IMG/VR virus record: IMGVR_UViG_3300042308_001616
Span: 58,861-122,860 of that record
DNA from: a virus
Direction: 5' to 3' (one strand)
DNA: 64,000 nt
Under the pieces are notes generated by a model that worked only from the letters and a program-made list of their open reading frames with translations, was not told the DNA's origin and made no database searches. Position numbers and translations under genes: made by a program. Below are positions 51,120 through 60,205 of this stretch, one piece after another (positions within the stretch are counted from its first letter, which is position 1; every line of letters starts with the position of its first letter).

Positions 51120-52082
51120 ATGAGCACAAAAAACCTAATTCTGTGGGAGAAATGGCGACCTAAAAAAATAGAGGACGTGATATTATTACCTAGGATAAAA
51201 AATAGATTCAATGATGGGGTAACCCAACACTACATATTCCATGGTCACTTTGGTACCGGAAAAACAAGCTTGGCTAGAATACTCATAGGTGAATATTCAA
51301 AAGACACCGCTTTTATGGATGTGAATTGTTCAGAAGAAACGAGTATTGATTATCTAAGAGATGAGATATCTAAATTCTGTAAGACAATTCCTATGTTCGA
51401 AACCAAATCTGATCAAAAGTACGTTTTGTTGGATGAATTTGAGAGGATATCACCACAATATCAGGACGCACTAAAGGCATTCATCGAAAAGTATAACAAC
51501 AAAGGTGTTAAGTTCATAATGTCAACAAATCACATTGACAAAGTGAGAGGAGGAATGAAGTCACGAATAAAGATGATAGACTTCGATTGTCAGAATATCG
51601 AAGAGGAGAGATATATGAAACAGGAGATATACAAACGAATAAAGAATGTTATATTGCCTGCAGAAGGAAAGGATATGTCTAAAGAACAACTCGTTCCAAT
51701 TATAAACAGATGGTTTCCAGACTTCCGAAAAATACTTGTAGAAGTCGATGACTTCCTAATATCCGGTGGTGATAGTTCAGAAGGTGGAAACGTATCAGTA
51801 AAGGACAAAAATGAACTCTACTCAATATTGCACGGGAATTCTGATTATGACACAATATACCACTTCATAATGAACACTTTCGGTCCTGACAAAGTATCAG
51901 AAATGTTGAAACTTATGGGTAGACCTTTTGTGGATTGGTGTGTAGAGAACGACAGATTCGTAGATAAACTATTCGAATGTAATCACATAATCACAGAATA
52001 TGTTCCATTGTTAGACTCCAACACAGATCCTGTTATATTAGGTATGTCAGCGATAGGTAAGTTTAGAGAAATACTTTCATAA
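51120..52082 (+). CDS. Sliding-clamp loader AAA+ ATPase subunit (T4 gp44 / RFC-like)
   Basis: LILWEKWRPKKIEDV (RFC box II, cf. PWVEKYRP), Walker A HGHFGTGKTS, Walker B VLLDEFERIS. Confidence 0.8.
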   Translation: MSTKNLILWEKWRPKKIEDVILLPRIKNRFNDGVTQHYIFHGHFGTGKTSLARILIGEYSKDTAFMDVNCSEETSIDYLRDEISKFCKTIPMFETKSDQKYVLLDEFERISPQYQDALKAFIEKYNNKGVKFIMSTNHIDKVRGGMKSRIKMIDFDCQNIEEERYMKQEIYKRIKNVILPAEGKDMSKEQLVPIINRWFPDFRKILVEVDDFLISGGDSSEGGNVSVKDKNELYSILHGNSDYDTIYHFIMNTFGPDKVSEMLKLMGRPFVDWCVENDRFVDKLFECNHIITEYVPLLDSNTDPVILGMSAIGKFREILS

Positions 52083-54414: not shown

Positions 54415-55050
54415 TTATAAAGGTAATTCTTCTTCACCTTCTTCGTTTTCTTCTTCGTTTTCTTCTTCGTTTTCTTCTTCACCCTCTTGTGCTTGACCTT
54501 GTGGTTGAACTTGAGTTTGAACTTGAGTTTGGGCTGGTTGTGCTTGTGCAGGTTGTCCTTGTGCATTAGGCTCTTCAAACTCTCCACCTTCAGGTACTTG
54601 TGCTTGACCTTCTGGTTGAACTTGAGTTTGAACCGGTTCTTGTGCTTGTGTAGGTTGTGCCTTAACCTGTGCTTGGCCTTCAGATCCTTCTTCAGTAGAT
54701 GCAGGAGTTTGTGCTTGTGCAGGTTGTCCCTGTGCCTGTGCTTGACCCATTAATGCACCACCTGGTATTTTATCTAAATCCAGACCTGTTGTAGTGATGT
54801 ATTGTAAAAGTTGCTCAGCAATCTCTACATCTCCAAAAAACTGGCGAAGATTCTTACCGGTTGTGTCCTTTACTTTCTTAACGTAAGAGTTTATCAATGA
54901 TTGTGGAATGTCCACCATAGACCTTACCTTATAAACGTCACCTACCTGCAAAACGGATTCTTTAATCGCCTCATCGAAAGCAGAAGGATCAACTGAAGAA
55001 AACTTACTCTTAATGTTTCTGTAAGAGTCATACGTTCTGATGTGTTTCAT
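54415..55050 (-). CDS. Hypothetical protein with long Q/A/E/P-rich low-complexity C-terminus (AQGQPAQAQ repeats, EENEEENEEENEE tail)
   Basis: Globular N-terminal ~100 aa, then degenerate repeats. A GGEFEE motif resembles the portal C-terminus GGAEFEF. Confidence 0.45.
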   Translation of the reverse strand: MKHIRTYDSYRNIKSKFSSVDPSAFDEAIKESVLQVGDVYKVRSMVDIPQSLINSYVKKVKDTTGKNLRQFFGDVEIAEQLLQYITTTGLDLDKIPGGALMGQAQAQGQPAQAQTPASTEEGSEGQAQVKAQPTQAQEPVQTQVQPEGQAQVPEGGEFEEPNAQGQPAQAQPAQTQVQTQVQPQGQAQEGEEENEEENEEENEEGEEELPL

Positions 55051-56052: not shown

Positions 56053-56589
56053 ATGACAAAAAAATTAGTCTGCTTCGACTTCGACGACACGTTGTTCCAT
56101 ACACCTAGTCCAGAAGAAGGAAAAAATATTTGGCAAGAAGCCACAGGTAAGGAATGGCCATACATAGGATGGTGGGGTAAACACGAAACACTCGACACCG
56201 ACATATTCGAAATACCAATGAACGAATGGGTAAAGGAAAAGTATTTCGAACACGTAGAGGATCCAGAAACAAAAGTAATTGTGGCAACCGGAAGGTTGAA
56301 TAAAGTAAAGGGTATGAGAGAGAATATTGACAAAATATTCGAAAAGAATGATTTAACATTCCACGAAGTTCACCTAAACTGGGGAGGAGATACACTTGAC
56401 TTCAAAAAGAAACTTTTTGGACAGAAATTAGACGAACAAAAATACGATGAATTCATAATGTTTGATGATCGACAGGAACACCTACCTCATTTTGAAGAGT
56501 GGGCAGAGATAGAAGCAATCAACAGAAATATGAATATAACCGTCGTGGACGTAGTTAACAAAACATTAAAAACATTCAATCCATATTAG
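56053..56589 (+). CDS. HAD-superfamily phosphatase
   Basis: Motif I LVCFDFDDTLF (DxDxT) at the N-terminus; FDDRQEH later (motif IV-like acidic pair). Confidence 0.6.
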   Translation: MTKKLVCFDFDDTLFHTPSPEEGKNIWQEATGKEWPYIGWWGKHETLDTDIFEIPMNEWVKEKYFEHVEDPETKVIVATGRLNKVKGMRENIDKIFEKNDLTFHEVHLNWGGDTLDFKKKLFGQKLDEQKYDEFIMFDDRQEHLPHFEEWAEIEAINRNMNITVVDVVNKTLKTFNPY

Positions 56590-56618
56590 AGTTGATGACA
56601 TAAGGGAGTTTGACTTAG

Positions 56619-56637
56619 TTTATATATAAAATAAATC
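56619..56637 (+). promoter_or_regulatory. Promoter-like motif GTTTATATATAAAATAAAT upstream of the second homing endonuclease
   Basis: Almost identical to the motif at 46911-46925 (TTTTATATATAAAATAAA). Confidence 0.4.
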
Positions 56638-56651
56638 AATTAAACAAACTT

Positions 56652-57548
56652 ATGTCAAAAAGAAAAACTTTAAAAGAGTGGCAAGAAGAAAGTAATATAA
56701 TACACAAAAACGAGTTCGTTATATTAGAAGAACCAAAAAGTGGCTCACATAATGTACCCATACTACACAAAAAATGTGGCAACATAATAAGTATGAAGTT
56801 GAACAATCACACAAAAAGATATTGTACCTTTTGTTCAGGTAAAAACAAAAAAAGTTTGGAGCAATACCAAGAAAAAAGTAACTTTATACACAATGGTGAA
56901 TATCGTATTTTAGAAAATCCGATAAACGTTAAGAATAAAGTCAAAATATTACACAACAAATGTGGTGGTATATTTGAAATAACTATGAATAACCATATCA
57001 ACCATAAACAAAAATGTAGACTATGCGGAACTAACTCCCGTAAGTCTAATGATTATTGGTTAGAGAGAAGTAGAGAAATATGGGGAACCGATTACACAAT
57101 ATTGGATTATATAGAAACTGTTCACCATAAAGTAGAAATACTTCACAATATATGTGGAAGGAAACATAAAAAAAATATGAATTCATTCATACACGGTGAA
57201 AGAGGATGTCCATTTTGCACAAAGGATTTAAAATATTCGGAAAAGTATATAACAGATTACTTAACTAACAAATCAATAAGATTTGAAACCGAAAAAACCT
57301 TTGACGACTTAATTAATCCAAAGACTGGTAGAAAACTTAGATATGATTTTTATCTACCAGATTTAAATATAATTATAGAAACACACGGTGTACAACATTA
57401 CAAACCAATAGAACATTGGCACGGTGAGAAAGGATACGAAGAACAGGTATATCGAGATAGAATAAAAGAAGAATATCTCAAAGAAAAAGAAATAAAATAC
57501 ATAGTACTAAACAACAAAGAGTTAACTAAAATAAAGGAAATAGTATGA
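56652..57548 (+). CDS. Putative homing endonuclease: three Cys/His zinc-finger-like modules plus Vsr-like PD-(D/E)xK nuclease domain
   Basis: Three repeats of ILHxKCG.I......NHxxxxxxCxxC. C-terminal RYDFYLPDLNIIIETHGVQHY resembles the IDIYLPDLGIGFEFNGLYWH nuclease motif of the 34492-36642 endonuclease. Confidence 0.5.
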   Translation: MSKRKTLKEWQEESNIIHKNEFVILEEPKSGSHNVPILHKKCGNIISMKLNNHTKRYCTFCSGKNKKSLEQYQEKSNFIHNGEYRILENPINVKNKVKILHNKCGGIFEITMNNHINHKQKCRLCGTNSRKSNDYWLERSREIWGTDYTILDYIETVHHKVEILHNICGRKHKKNMNSFIHGERGCPFCTKDLKYSEKYITDYLTNKSIRFETEKTFDDLINPKTGRKLRYDFYLPDLNIIIETHGVQHYKPIEHWHGEKGYEEQVYRDRIKEEYLKEKEIKYIVLNNKELTKIKEIV

Positions 57549-57826
57549 GTACAAAAATTAAAGAACAAGTAGAGTCTAAGGTAGAAGAGATTTTATCAAA
57601 ACCTTATGTGTTGATTTTAGAAAATGATGATTATAATAGTTTCGATTGGGTAATCACATGTCTAATGAAGGTTTGTAAACATGAGTACGAACAAGCCAAC
57701 CAATGTGCACACATAGTACATTTCAAAGGTAGATGTGATGTAAAATACGGAGACTATGATTTAATTTCAGAAATGAAAGATAAACTAAAAGGTGCTGGTC
57801 TTTCCGTAACTATGGAGGCAAACTAA
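57545..57826 (+). CDS. clpS: ClpS-like ATP-dependent Clp protease adaptor protein
   Basis: PYVLILENDDYNSFDWVITCLMKVCKHEYEQANQCAHIVHFKGRC matches the ClpS core (Y.V.L.NDD.T.M.FV..VL...F......A....L.VH..G). Size 93 aa. Confidence 0.75.
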   Translation: MSTKIKEQVESKVEEILSKPYVLILENDDYNSFDWVITCLMKVCKHEYEQANQCAHIVHFKGRCDVKYGDYDLISEMKDKLKGAGLSVTMEAN

Positions 57827-57829
57827 TGT

Positions 57830-58060
57830 GTATATAGAAAAGGGATAACGACTATGTCGACTACGAAGTAATCGGTGCCGGAAACCTACGTATAAGTAAT
57901 TCATGCACCTGGCAGTGTGGTGGAAAAAAAGGGTTCAGTATCGGAGCAGAATGGGCAAACACGGTTACGCAGGAGGTGTAATTTCGAACGAGGACGCAAT
58001 CAAACTAGCGAGACATATACTTAGGACTGTAAATTTAGGTGAACTGATACCGGACGAAGA
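57830..58060. other. ~230-nt GC-richer noncoding region between clpS-like and terminase genes; candidate small RNA or regulatory region
   Basis: No ORF. Contains several hairpins, including GGACGAAGA-TTAG-TTCTTCGTCC overlapping the terminase stop. Confidence 0.2.
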
Positions 58061-60205
58061 TTAGTTCTTCGTCCCAAACCAGTTTATATTACTATCGTTA
58101 TTCCAAATATTTCCTTTGGATTTTTTCATCTTTCGTGCACGTAAAACCTGACCATAATCAAGTCCTTCAACAAAGTCAACCTTTTTTAATTCGCGTTCAA
58201 CATAGTCCATAAAGTCTTTTGGTGAATTGTTTCGTCCCCAATCCTCAACCATTTCTCGGAACTCGTGTTTTTTGAAAATAGTACTAGAGTTAACCAAAGT
58301 CATAACCGTATCATCATGACCAACATCTGCGGCATATCTTACGTTACCGGCCACCGTTGTGTGTTTAACGAAAGTCGTTATCTCTCTTATATTGTCTTCG
58401 TTTGTAATAAGGAATGACTTTGAGTACATCAAATCTTGATAGTCTTTAACCATCATATTTTTATTTTCTCCAACTTTCAAACCTATCCTTTCTTCGGTTG
58501 CATCTGCACGATGTTTATAACGGATAAAAACGGATGATCCATAGTTGTTATTACCATCGAATACGTGTGGCATCTCTGCAAGTAAAGCATTACCATAGTT
58601 ATTCAACTCAAGAACTATCTTGACGTTTTCGGGATTGAAGTATTCAAAAGTCAATAAGTAAAGAAGTTCCGAAAGTTGTTTAACGGAAACTAAGTTACTA
58701 CGGAATATTGCTATCTGTTCGAGTCTGAAGAAATCCACAACTGAAGTATATTTGTGTTTTTGGTCCTCTATTAGAGACACCGGTTTCTCAGAAATACGGA
58801 ATATATTAATTACAGAATAATCCTGTCCGAGTCCCTCCGAAATATCGACAGACATAACTATCCTGTAATCTTTTCGTTTTATTGGAATGAATCTTTCATC
58901 ATCATCAGTCCATTTTAGTCCCTCGTAAGAAAACTTTAGTCGTGTAAGTTCATCAAGTTCTTGATATTCAAAATTCTTCTTACCCTTTAACAAATCTTCA
59001 ATTATCGATTCATTTAACAAAGACTTACTAGAGTTGATAAACCTTAGACCATATTCCTGGTTGAATGCATCTTCACCACCAATATCCTTCACCGCCTCAT
59101 CTTTCCAAGTTGTCACCTCCGCAACCGAAAGTATAGAAACCTCGTTACCCTTAACATCGATAAATGTAAGTGACTTAACCATCTCATCAGAACACTTATC
59201 GTTGTTGAAAACGTGTATAACGTCTTTCTGTTGGTCCATATTGAACTCCATTTTGAGTTTTGTTAATTCTCCAAATGCAGAAACACAACTATTATAAATA
59301 TCGTCTTTTGTAACTCCGTGATGGAAAAGACGACCATTGTTCAACCTTATATAAGTAACGAACCTACCCGGAACCTGATACCAATAGACCCTCATAGGTT
59401 TGTAGTTGTTTTTGAGTGGATCACCGTCAGGTCTTTCTGCATCAATTAACAACTTATGAAAAAGGTTCATACCATTCGGTGTAGATGTTATAATTATCTT
59501 TGAATTCTGAACCGCAGAAACGGTCGGGAATGCGGCAGTATAGTATGGCTCTATAATATTCGACGGAATGTGTGCAAACTCATCAAGATAAAGAACGTCA
59601 ATGGTAAAACCAATTGCAGGTGTTTTTGACCTAGCAGACGTTTTTATTCTACAACCATTATCGAAGGTGAGTGACTTCTGATTCCAAGTCTTTATACCTG
59701 GTTTTAGAAAGAATGGTAGAAGTGAATAAATTGACTTCACTTTATCAACTATCTCAATCGCAGTGTCTCCCTTATTCGCCACTATCATACAGTTCTTATC
59801 GTTGTTGAAAAGTATTGTATGTAATATGAATATTGCAGAAGATACCGTTTTTCCAACCTGCCGCGACGCCATTAATATATTGAACCGGTTGTTCATAAAG
59901 TTATCGAGAATCTCACTCTGGTAGTCCCTAAGAAGTATAGAACCTACGGATCCATCCTCTCTTTTAGTCTTACAATACTTTTCGGTGAAATAATGTATAT
60001 CAACCGCACAACGTATGTATTCCTGTTGTTCTTCCGGAGAAAGTCGGAAAACTACACCAGACCTCTTCAAACCAACCTCACTCTTTAACCAAGGATTCTG
60101 GAACTTCTTAACTTGTATACCGTCGTTTATTTGATTTGTAGCTTCTTCCACCAATCGGGTGGTAAAAACCATCTGTCTAACATCTTCTTTCTTTTTCTCC
60201 GCCAT
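58061..60205 (-). CDS. Terminase large subunit, T4 gp17-like
   Basis: Walker A ILMASRQVGKT (T4 gp17 SRQLGKT), Walker B LYLDEFAHI, C-terminal nuclease region. 714 aa. Confidence 0.9.
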   Translation of the reverse strand: MAEKKKEDVRQMVFTTRLVEEATNQINDGIQVKKFQNPWLKSEVGLKRSGVVFRLSPEEQQEYIRCAVDIHYFTEKYCKTKREDGSVGSILLRDYQSEILDNFMNNRFNILMASRQVGKTVSSAIFILHTILFNNDKNCMIVANKGDTAIEIVDKVKSIYSLLPFFLKPGIKTWNQKSLTFDNGCRIKTSARSKTPAIGFTIDVLYLDEFAHIPSNIIEPYYTAAFPTVSAVQNSKIIITSTPNGMNLFHKLLIDAERPDGDPLKNNYKPMRVYWYQVPGRFVTYIRLNNGRLFHHGVTKDDIYNSCVSAFGELTKLKMEFNMDQQKDVIHVFNNDKCSDEMVKSLTFIDVKGNEVSILSVAEVTTWKDEAVKDIGGEDAFNQEYGLRFINSSKSLLNESIIEDLLKGKKNFEYQELDELTRLKFSYEGLKWTDDDERFIPIKRKDYRIVMSVDISEGLGQDYSVINIFRISEKPVSLIEDQKHKYTSVVDFFRLEQIAIFRSNLVSVKQLSELLYLLTFEYFNPENVKIVLELNNYGNALLAEMPHVFDGNNNYGSSVFIRYKHRADATEERIGLKVGENKNMMVKDYQDLMYSKSFLITNEDNIREITTFVKHTTVAGNVRYAADVGHDDTVMTLVNSSTIFKKHEFREMVEDWGRNNSPKDFMDYVERELKKVDFVEGLDYGQVLRARKMKKSKGNIWNNDSNINWFGTKN

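What the first reader, a model, noticed from the sequence alone, without database searches (positions are those of the whole stretch)
57545..57826. Phage-encoded ClpS-like adaptor, translationally coupled to a homing endonuclease gene
The 93-aa ORF matches the ClpS fold signature (Y.V.L.NDD.....V). ClpS delivers N-degron substrates to ClpAP and inhibits ClpA degradation of other substrates. A phage ClpS could protect phage proteins from ClpAP or retarget host proteins. Its start (ATGA) overlaps the stop of the upstream HEG, suggesting the HEG inserted next to it.
Basis: established knowledge. Interest (0 to 1): 0.6.

Follow-up and report, generated by a model that had tools for sequence, protein, structure and literature searches.

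The report
Megaphage ClpS gene beside homing endonuclease
A giant phage that probably infects Bacteroidota carries a well-conserved copy of the bacterial ClpS adaptor, which marks proteins for Clp-protease destruction by their first amino acid, and a mobile endonuclease gene has recently inserted just upstream; phage ClpS genes are already known, so this is a solid but fairly ordinary find.

Summary
ORF 57545-57826 (+, 93 aa) is a ClpS-family protein: Pfam PF02617 scores 63 bits against a cutoff of 23, and an AlphaFold model matches solved ClpS structures at about 1 Å rmsd. The N-degron-binding residues are present (N27, D28, D29, H59 correspond to E. coli N34, D35, D36, H66). The gene is under purifying selection (dN/dS 0.06-0.18).

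Its start overlaps the stop of a 298-aa upstream gene (ATGA). That gene encodes three zinc-finger modules and a Vsr-like nuclease, not an HNH nuclease. It is absent from relatives whose clpS DNA is otherwise identical, yet sits at the same site in diverged relatives. It is therefore a site-specific mobile endonuclease gene.

The window comes from a roughly 0.6-Mb "Mahaphage"-type megaphage. The nearest cellular ClpS proteins are all from Bacteroidota, and 36 of those 80 loci form clpS-aat N-degron operons.

The closest complete relative genome also encodes two ClpP proteins and a ClpC that lacks the N-domain ClpS normally docks on. The likely partner is therefore the host ClpC, but this is inferred.

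Phage ClpS is already annotated in several jumbo phages and was discussed in a 2021 review. This is a new member of a known kind, of moderate interest.

The parts
57545..57826 (+). clpS: 93-aa ClpS-family N-degron adaptor. It has a roughly 18-residue N-terminal extension and then the alpha/beta core (residues 21-92).
   Evidence: Pfam PF02617 63.2 bits. AF2 model plus Foldseek against ClpS structures. N27/D28/D29/H59 are invariant. dN/dS is 0.06-0.18.
56652..57548 (+). Free-standing homing-endonuclease-type gene (298 aa): three H-x2-C...C-x2-C zinc modules and a C-terminal Vsr-like (PD-(D/E)XK) nuclease domain.
   Evidence: PHROG 559 and 9084. Invariant H/C triplets and D232, E243, H249, D269, K272. 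The best PDB fold matches are Vsr 1cw0/1vsr. Presence/absence polymorphism is shown.
57545..57548 (+). ATGA overlap: the clpS start codon overlaps the endonuclease gene's stop codon.
   Evidence: Read directly. The same 4-nt overlap occurs in L108 and L110, and the two genes are fused into one reading frame in P0280.
56604..56629 (+). 26-nt motif GGGAGTTTGACTTAGTTTATATATAA upstream of the endonuclease gene. It belongs to the inserted cassette and may be its promoter or regulatory site.
   Evidence: An 18-nt core of the motif was found in five endonuclease-positive loci (L004, L108, L109, L110, L111) and in none of the other 106 fetched loci, which include the whole of LR745206. The full 26-mer occurs once in the window, with 0 expected by chance.
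56053..56589 (+). HAD-family phosphatase gene (178 aa), the conserved upstream neighbour of clpS. In relatives without the endonuclease it ends 16-27 nt before the clpS start.
   Evidence: Pfam HAD_SAK_1, E 1e-7. Synteny is shown.
57826..58064 (+). Decayed copy of a 79-aa ORF that is intact in some relatives. Here it carries a TAG at codon 4 and a 1-nt deletion.
   Evidence: Alignment A1 and translations. There is no sign of stop-codon recoding in the window.
58061..60205 (-). Large terminase subunit gene, convergent with clpS. This pairing is conserved across the main megaphage clade.
   Evidence: Pfam Terminase_6N, E 1e-20. Synteny is shown.

Best explanation
The ORF encodes a functional ClpS-type N-recognin carried by a roughly 0.6-Mb megaphage of the Mahaphage clade, whose predicted hosts are Bacteroidota. 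The gene was captured from a Bacteroidota lineage and has been kept next to the terminase gene under purifying selection. Shown here: the ClpS fold; the residues that grip the substrate alpha-amino group (N27, D28, D29, H59); a hydrophobic pocket of the Bacteroidota type (N31, F33, A55); and an N-terminal extension of conserved length. Inferred from E. coli and Caulobacter ClpS biochemistry: during infection the protein binds proteins that start with a bulky hydrophobic residue and docks on the N-domain of a ClpA/ClpC-type unfoldase. This feeds those substrates into ClpP and shuts off other N-domain-dependent traffic. The ClpC encoded by the closest complete relative genomes has no N-domain, so the docking partner is most likely the host ClpC. 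The phage's own N-domain-less ClpC and two ClpP proteins would then form a separate protease that adaptors cannot regulate. The upstream gene is a zinc-finger plus Vsr-like homing endonuclease gene that inserted into the 16-27-nt HAD-clpS spacer. The insertion rewrote the first four or five clpS codons and left an ATGA stop/start overlap, which probably lets ribosomes reinitiate on clpS so the insertion is not polar.
For: ClpS family and fold. Pocket residues: alignment to the verified E. coli sequence, invariance in 65 phage sequences and in 80 Bacteroidota sequences. Purifying selection. Clade and host: and PMC7162821. Bacteroidota origin: the 80 best genome hits, at 39-58% identity, are all Bacteroidota except one MAG labelled Oscillospiraceae. 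Of these, 36 of 80 have aat (PF03588, E about 1e-70) immediately downstream of clpS. Relatives encode a ClpC without Clp_N and two ClpP proteins. No separate N-domain ORF was found. Known ClpC adaptors bind the N-domain (PMC12583610). Bacteroidota possess ClpC, for example PG0010 (PMC3646045). Endonuclease insertion.
Against: No binding or degradation data exist for this protein or for any phage ClpS. The gatekeeper residue is Phe rather than Met, and the specificity of this Bacteroidota-type pocket has never been measured. The protein falls far below every NCBIfam ClpS equivalog cutoff (34 bits against 86-159), although a genuine Flavobacterium ClpS from a clpS-aat operon does too. The helix-3 face that contacts ClpA in E. 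coli differs systematically from bacterial relatives (K75 to S, P76 to E, R84 to A), so the partner may not be a standard host N-domain. The ClpC and ClpP genes were seen in relatives (LR745206, LR756502), not in this 64-kb window. The host is not identified, and I could not check that it has an N-domain-bearing ClpC.
Confidence: 0.7

Rival explanations
1. Inhibitor or decoy rather than delivery adaptor. The phage ClpS mainly blocks the host ClpC/ClpA N-domain, or sequesters N-degron-bearing phage proteins such as cleavage products of virion maturation. This protects them from host Clp degradation without handing them over.
For: E. coli ClpS inhibits ClpAP degradation of non-N-degron substrates (established knowledge). 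The phage clade carries its own ClpC that ClpS cannot dock on through an N-domain. The helix-3 face differs from bacterial ClpS. clpS sits next to the packaging gene.
Against: The N-terminal extension, which E. coli needs for delivery but not for inhibition, is kept at about 17-19 residues across the clade. The pocket residues are invariant, which blocking alone would not require.
Confidence: 0.15
2. ClpS works with the phage's own N-domain-less ClpC and ClpP pair through a non-canonical contact. For example, its N-terminal extension might be engaged directly by the pore, or it might bind the acidic 45-residue N-terminus that replaces the N-domain.
For: ClpS, N-domain-less ClpC and two ClpP proteins co-occur in LR745206 and LR756502. 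One ClpS cluster and one ClpC cluster have a longest contig of identical length, 382,600 bp, which hints at co-occurrence on a third genome. The ClpC keeps a VGF ClpP-docking loop.
Against: Every solved ClpS-unfoldase complex uses the N-domain (PDB 1mbu, 1lzw, 1r6q, 7uiv listed). The genes are 240 kb apart in LR745206. No sequence evidence points to a new interface.
Confidence: 0.1
3. Inert passenger: a recently captured host gene with no role in infection.
For: No direct evidence supports this. It is worth considering only because the clpS copies of other jumbo phages look like independent pickups.
Against: 698 close homologues exist, on contigs up to 631 kb. Synteny with TerL is conserved down to 68% protein identity. 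dN/dS is 0.06-0.18 with saturated synonymous sites.
Confidence: 0.03

Closest known systems
Chromosomal ClpS of Bacteroidota (for example Flavobacterium sp. MAG17, locus L027; Arachidicoccus rhizosphaerae, locus L044), often in a clpS-aat operon
   Same: 39-58% identity and the same length class. The pocket signature is identical: N-D-D/E-x-N-S/T-F, V36, I37, C44, H46, Q53, H59, G62. Both fall under the same Pfam family.
   Different: The phage copy has no aat neighbour, and no aat was found in the window or in LR745206. The helix-3 surface carries clade-specific changes (K75S, P76E, A80K, R84A). The phage copy lies between a HAD phosphatase gene and the terminase gene.
E. coli ClpS (PDB 1mbu, 3o2b), the reference N-recognin of the Leu/N-degron pathway
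   Same: Same fold (rmsd 1.3-2.3 A over about 81 residues). N34, D35, D36, H66, V43 and L99 are conserved as N27, D28, D29, H59, V36 and L86.
   Different: About 26-32% identity. T38 becomes N, gatekeeper M40 becomes F, and M62 becomes A. The N-terminal extension is about 7 residues shorter. The gene is not linked to clpA. K84, a ClpA-contact residue (recalled from the literature), has no clear equivalent.
ClpS genes of cultured jumbo phages (Pseudomonas PA5oct, Agrobacterium Atu_ph07 gp708, Sinorhizobium Phosso, Cronobacter GAP32, Yersinia fHe-Yen9-04)
   Same: A phage-borne ClpS in a very large genome, often alongside phage ClpP, ClpA or ClpX. It has already been interpreted as an adaptor bringing targets to ClpAP (PMC7824862; PMC6102473).
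   Different: Those copies are Proteobacteria-type sequences. The window protein does not find them by tblastn and they do not find it, so they are independent acquisitions. Atu_ph07 is reported to have a ClpA, whereas this clade's ClpC lacks the N-domain.
Vsr-like (PD-(D/E)XK) free-standing homing endonucleases of large phages (PHROG 559/9084 members in SPO1-like Bacillus, Twort-like Staphylococcus and Enterococcus phages). The EDxHD/I-Bth0305I family is recalled from memory.
   Same: 31-33% identity over 90% of the length to genes annotated as homing or HNH endonuclease in 441 phage records, often in several copies per genome. The catalytic domain is Vsr-like.
   Different: No activity or target site is known for this subfamily. 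The 'HNH' label is not borne out: no HNH motif or Pfam HNH hit was found.

Membership tests
ClpS (Pfam PF02617) N-degron adaptor | Sequence match above the curated family threshold | tested here: met
   63.2 bits against a gathering score of 23, E 1.9e-17, covering profile positions 4-76 of 80.
ClpS (Pfam PF02617) N-degron adaptor | Three-helix, three-strand alpha/beta core | tested here: met
   The AF2 model shows E21-26, H33-43, H48-61, E63-69, H71-83, E87-92, with pLDDT 85. Its top 38 PDB matches are all ClpS, with TM up to 0.93.
ClpS (Pfam PF02617) N-degron adaptor | Residues that bind the substrate alpha-amino group (E. coli N34, D35, D36, H66) | tested here: met
   N27, D28, D29 and H59 are invariant in 65 phage sequences. 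N27, D28 and H59 are also invariant in 80 Bacteroidota sequences, where position 29 is D in 56, E in 23 and H in 1. The alignment is to an E. coli sequence verified against 1mbu_C.
ClpS (Pfam PF02617) N-degron adaptor | Hydrophobic side-chain pocket with a Met gatekeeper (E. coli M40) | tested here: inconclusive
   The pocket positions are hydrophobic (L25, V36, V58, L86), but the gatekeeper is F33 and M62 is A55. All 80 Bacteroidota ClpS share this. Other ClpS types also vary the gatekeeper, for example Arg in Arabidopsis ClpS1 (PMC7966870). The effect on specificity is unknown.
ClpS (Pfam PF02617) N-degron adaptor | Flexible N-terminal extension long enough for substrate hand-over | tested here: inconclusive
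   18-20 residues precede the core. Their sequence varies but their length is kept, and model confidence is low there (pLDDT 65-75). The length requirement is known only for E. coli (recalled from the literature).
ClpS (Pfam PF02617) N-degron adaptor | Docking on the N-domain of ClpA/ClpC | not testable with these tools
   No complex prediction or assay was available. Acidic residues align with E. coli E79 and E82 (D70, D72), but K84 has no clear counterpart.
NCBIfam ClpS equivalogs (NF000668-NF000672, NF0095xx) | Score above the equivalog cutoff | tested here: not met
   The best score is 34.2 bits against cutoffs of 86-159. A bacterial Flavobacterium ClpS from a clpS-aat operon fails in the same way, at 34.1 bits. 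These models therefore do not cover the Bacteroidota subfamily.
Free-standing homing endonuclease gene | Presence/absence at one precise site between otherwise near-identical genomes | tested here: met
   The gene is present in the window and L004-L006 and absent in L007-L010. The flanking HAD is 97.8% identical, and clpS has zero synonymous differences.
Free-standing homing endonuclease gene | Same insertion site occupied in diverged genomes (site specificity) | tested here: met
   L108 (81% identical), L110 (57%) and P0280 (55%) all sit between HAD and clpS.
Free-standing homing endonuclease gene | Recognisable nuclease domain with conserved catalytic residues | tested here: met
   D232, E243, H249, D269 and K272 are invariant in 50 homologues. 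The model has pLDDT 89.5, and its best PDB matches are Vsr 1cw0/1vsr followed by other PD-(D/E)XK nucleases, with weak E-values of 8e-3 and above. JGI names some homologues 'very-short-patch-repair endonuclease'.
Free-standing homing endonuclease gene | Cleavage of the endonuclease-free allele followed by copying of the gene | not testable with these tools
   This needs an in vitro cleavage assay or a co-infection experiment.
HNH endonuclease (the label of PHROG 559) | HNH/beta-beta-alpha-metal catalytic motif | tested here: not met
   No HNH Pfam hit appears even at E up to 10. The catalytic domain is Vsr-like.
Translationally coupled gene pair | Overlapping stop and start codons, conserved among relatives | tested here: met
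   ATGA occurs in the window, L108 and L110. Whether coupling actually occurs was not testable. The purine-rich AAGGAA 6 nt upstream in the window is not conserved in L108 or L110.

The most novel reading that the evidence does not exclude
The largest known phages run a two-part takeover of Clp proteolysis. They bring their own ClpP pair and a ClpC stripped of its regulatory N-domain, a protease that no host adaptor can switch off. They also bring a ClpS whose pocket is host-like but whose docking face is remodelled. That ClpS either locks the host ClpC N-domains onto N-degron substrates or has evolved an N-domain-independent way to feed the phage ClpC. Either way it would be a new mode of adaptor use.
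Probability: 0.2. Interest if true: 0.65.

Novelty: new member of a known kind. Interest (0 to 1): 0.35.

Why it matters
ClpS decides which proteins ClpA/ClpC-ClpP destroys. A phage copy is therefore a plausible tool for rewiring host protein turnover, yet no phage ClpS has been tested. This copy belongs to a large, well-sampled clade with 698 close homologues. It retains the substrate pocket, and it comes from phages that also carry ClpP and an N-domain-less ClpC. That makes the clade a good system for asking how a virus uses an N-degron adaptor. It also points to an uncharacterised Bacteroidota ClpS subfamily, with a Phe gatekeeper and clpS-aat operons, that curated equivalog models miss. 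The endonuclease polymorphism is a clean natural example of homing into an intergenic spacer without breaking the downstream gene.

Tried and rejected
- The AAA+ gene at 51120-52082, conserved about 5 kb from clpS in relatives, is a clamp loader (DNA_pol3_delta2, Gp44_lid, Rad17 hits). It is not an unfoldase partner.
- Stop-codon recoding, as in Lak phages, is not supported. Making TAG a sense codon lengthens ORFs no more than doing the same for TGA or TAA. The TAG in the small downstream ORF therefore marks a pseudogene.
- A separate N-domain protein was sought with an ad-hoc three-sequence Clp_N HMM and phmmer against all ORFs of LR745206 and the window. Nothing significant appeared (best E 0.08), but sensitivity is limited.
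- No ClpA/C gene lies next to clpS in the 80 bacterial loci.
- Rfam on the whole window gave no hits.
- The sigma-70 promoter and intrinsic terminator scan around the locus found nothing above shuffled expectation. Bacteroidota-type promoters are not covered by that scan.
- The PDB sequence search with the endonuclease returned only a spurious protease hit.
- No paralogue of the endonuclease exists in the window, and it shows no similarity to the second endonuclease gene in L008.
- I could not establish whether this window's own genome carries the ClpC and ClpP genes.

Full report
**What is there**

The ORF is exactly as described: 57545-57826 on the + strand, 93 codons, ATG start and TAA stop. 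Its ATG overlaps the TGA of a 298-codon ORF at 56652-57548, giving ATGA.

The 93-aa product is a ClpS-family protein.
- Pfam PF02617 scores 63.2 bits against a gathering score of 23, E 1.9e-17.
- A sequence search of the PDB finds only ClpS chains, apart from one marginal coiled-coil (GCN4) hit.
- An AlphaFold model built on 65 homologues has mean pLDDT 85.3 and the three-strand, three-helix ClpS core.
- The model's 38 best PDB matches are all ClpS: M. smegmatis, Arabidopsis ClpS1, E. coli, Caulobacter, Agrobacterium ClpS2 and Plasmodium. TM reaches 0.93 and rmsd is 0.9-1.5 A.

**Pocket residues**

I confirmed my E. coli ClpS sequence against PDB 1mbu_C, 106 of 106 residues, and aligned it.

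| E. coli residue | Window residue | Note |
|---|---|---|
| N34, D35, D36, H66 | N27, D28, D29, H59 | bind the substrate alpha-amino group |
| V43, L99 | V36, L86 | hydrophobic pocket |
| T38 | N31 | changed |
| M40 (gatekeeper) | F33 | changed |
| M62 | A55 | changed |

The functional assignments of the E. coli residues are established knowledge from the 2006-2011 ClpS studies. The PDB entries are listed.

N27, D28, D29, N31, F33, V36, A55, H59 and L86 are invariant in 65 phage homologues down to 72% identity. N27, D28, F33, V36 and H59 are invariant, and N31 nearly so (79 of 80), in 80 Bacteroidota ClpS sequences; position 29 there is D, E or H, A55 is kept in 62 of 80, and position 86 is I or L.

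One caveat applies. One of the two search patterns used to collect the bacterial set contained NDD[YF]N[ST]F. However, 41 loci with V, I or H at position 30 cannot have matched that pattern, and they still carry N31 and F33. The altered pocket is therefore a Bacteroidota subfamily trait, not decay in the phage.

Pairwise dN/dS among phage copies is 0.06-0.18, with synonymous sites near saturation. The gene is under purifying selection.

**Where it comes from**

The window is phage DNA. A T4-type large terminase gene lies convergent to clpS.

The only similar records in the phage collection are uncultured genomes of 634, 636 and 642 kb: LR745206, LR756504 and LR756502. These belong to the set of genomes above 634 kb that Al-Shayeb et al. 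placed in the Mahaphage clade, with predicted Bacteroidetes hosts (PMC7162821).

The protein database holds 698 close homologues of 91-96 aa, on contigs up to 631 kb. JGI already names many of them ClpS. Several source samples appear to belong to the same JGI metagenome series as Lake Mendota MAGs, judging by accession numbers, which suggests a freshwater origin.

A scan of one genome per bacterial species returned 80 best relatives at 39-58% identity. All are Bacteroidota (Chitinophagia, Flavobacteriales, Saprospiraceae, Bacteroidales) except one MAG labelled Oscillospiraceae. In 36 of those 80 loci, clpS is followed on the same strand by aat, the Leu/Phe-tRNA-protein transferase of the bacterial N-degron pathway (PF03588, E about 1e-70). 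The nearest cellular relatives are therefore working N-degron components.

The phage has no aat in the window or in the complete LR745206 genome.

The ClpS of LR756504 is only 39-43% identical to the other phage copies but 54% identical to bacterial ones. It also sits in a different neighbourhood. That looks like a second, independent capture.

**The upstream gene**

In LR745206, LR756502 and the close relatives L007-L014, a HAD-family phosphatase gene ends 16-27 nt before clpS, with nothing between them. The 298-aa gene is present only in the window and its near-identical copies.

L007 lacks the gene, yet its clpS has no synonymous difference from the window. Only the first codons differ: MGKVKEQ in L007 against MSTKIKEQ in the window. 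The insertion therefore replaced the spacer and rewrote the 5' end of clpS.

Related copies that are 81%, 57% and 55% identical occupy the same junction in other lineages, again with a 4-nt overlap. In one case the gene is fused in frame with clpS.

A 26-nt motif just upstream (56604-56629) accompanies the gene. Its 18-nt core was found in five endonuclease-positive loci and in none of the other 106 loci fetched.

The protein has three invariant H-x2-C...C-x2-C modules and a C-terminal domain with invariant D232, E243, H249, D269 and K272. Its model has pLDDT 89.5, and the best matches are the Vsr endonuclease and then other PD-(D/E)XK nucleases. These matches are weak but consistent.

It matches PHROG families labelled HNH or homing endonuclease. 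It has 31-33% identical relatives in 441 phage records, often in several copies per genome. No HNH motif was found.

This is a site-specific, free-standing homing-endonuclease-type gene of the Vsr-like kind. Translational coupling is a reasonable inference from the conserved overlap but was not tested. The purine-rich stretch before the clpS start in the window is not conserved in relatives.

**How ClpS probably works here**

I fetched the whole of LR745206. Besides its one clpS, it encodes two ClpP proteins with intact Ser-His-Asp motifs (PF00574, E 7e-54 and 8e-68). These score closer to cellular ClpP models than to head-maturation protease models.

It also encodes a 701-aa ClpC-type double-ring ATPase with a UVR motif and a VGF ClpP-docking loop, but no Clp_N domain. 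Matches to ClpA models start at profile position 145. LR756502 has an 82% identical copy covering residues 2-688. All 120 best database homologues are 697-715 aa and lack Clp_N. No separate N-domain ORF was detected (limited sensitivity).

All solved ClpS-unfoldase complexes, and all characterised ClpC adaptors, use the N-domain (PDB entries; PMC12583610). The phage ClpS therefore most likely docks on the host ClpC. Bacteroidota do have ClpC, for example P. gingivalis PG0010 (PMC3646045).

There it would direct N-degron substrates to ClpP and displace other N-domain clients. The phage's own N-domain-less ClpC and ClpP pair would act separately. This step is inference.

Two points argue for caution. 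The phage clade differs from bacterial ClpS on the helix-3 face (K75S, P76E, R84A). In addition, the ClpC and ClpP genes were seen in relatives, not in this window.

**Comparison and novelty**

Phage ClpS is not new.
- It is annotated in Pseudomonas phage PA5oct, Agrobacterium phage Atu_ph07, Sinorhizobium phage Phosso, Cronobacter phage GAP32 and others.
- It was described for Atu_ph07 alongside phage ClpA, ClpB, ClpX and ClpP (PMC6102473).
- A 2021 comparative review of jumbo phages interpreted it as an adaptor bringing targets to host ClpAP (PMC7824862).

Those copies are Proteobacteria-type and are not detectably related to this one by tblastn. This is therefore an independent, Bacteroidota-derived member of a known kind.

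Two aspects appear undescribed. One is the pairing of ClpS with an N-domain-less ClpC and two ClpP proteins in the largest phages; the huge-phage paper's main text does not mention Clp. The other is the Bacteroidota ClpS subfamily itself, which falls below all NCBIfam ClpS equivalog cutoffs, as does a bacterial clpS-aat member.

**Verdict**

It is a new member of a known kind. Interest is moderate at 0.35, with a smaller chance (about 0.2) that the ClpS and N-domain-less ClpC combination hides an unusual adaptor mechanism.

Noticed in passing
window 57826-58064 (+): This is the remnant of a 79-aa ORF that starts on the clpS stop codon and is intact in L007, L008 and L108. Here it has CAG changed to TAG at codon 4 and a 1-nt deletion. 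The whole segment is absent from L009, L010, L011 and LR745206. Its function is unknown, with no meaningful Pfam hit.
   Followed up: partly
window 56604-56629 (+): The 26-nt sequence GGGAGTTTGACTTAGTTTATATATAA lies just upstream of the endonuclease gene. An 18-nt core was found in five endonuclease-positive loci, including two lineages whose endonuclease is only 57-81% identical, and in no other fetched locus. It may be the cassette's own promoter or operator.
   Followed up: partly
L103:31224-33329 (+) (LR745206 423224-425329); L096:26122-26865 (-); L097:25559-26221 (-): The closest complete relative genome encodes a ClpC-type ATPase with no N-domain, replaced by an acidic 45-residue segment, and two ClpP paralogues. 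The N-domain-less form is universal among its 120 best homologues.
   Followed up: yes
L003:5980-6264 (+) (LR756504): A second megaphage ClpS is 54% identical to bacterial Bacteroidota ClpS but at most 43% identical to the other phage copies, and it sits in an unrelated neighbourhood. This is probably an independent acquisition.
   Followed up: partly
protein P0280 (ENA contigs of 5872 and 4047 bp): In one lineage the endonuclease and ClpS are called as a single 389-aa fusion protein. Its ClpS part reads NDP instead of NDD, which may indicate a decaying copy. No DNA was available to check.
   Followed up: no
L008:6742-7797 (-): A different, unrelated DUF559-type endonuclease gene (351 aa) sits beside the terminase gene in one close relative, whose TerL is called 30 residues longer. 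The terminase neighbourhood seems to be a hot spot for mobile nuclease genes.
   Followed up: no
window 56053-60205 compared with L007: The region is mosaic. HAD is 97.8% identical and clpS is identical apart from its first codons, but the adjacent TerL is only 84.7% identical. This implies a recombination breakpoint between clpS and TerL.
   Followed up: no
L016-L094 (36 of 80 bacterial loci, for example L027:5980-6980 and L044:5833-7045): Bacteroidota commonly have clpS immediately followed by aat (Leu/Phe-tRNA-protein transferase). No Clp ATPase gene lies within 6 kb.
   Followed up: partly
window 57674-57682 (ClpS residues C44-H46): C44 and H46 are invariant in all 80 Bacteroidota ClpS sequences and all phage copies, but E. 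coli has F51 and Y53 at these positions. C54 is also mostly conserved. This could be a subfamily-specific metal or redox site, but it is unexplained.
   Followed up: no
window 51120-52082 (+): This AAA+ gene is kept about 5 kb from clpS in all three complete megaphage relatives. It is a clamp-loader-type ATPase, not a Clp partner.
   Followed up: yes
L110:4184-5092 (+): In a 412-kb relative, a 302-aa ORF of unknown function lies directly after clpS, where the window has the decayed small ORF.
   Followed up: no
window 54415-55050 (-): This 211-aa protein has a long Q/A/P/E-rich low-complexity tail. The gene is conserved in position in relatives, the repeat region is variable, and there is no family match.
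   Followed up: no
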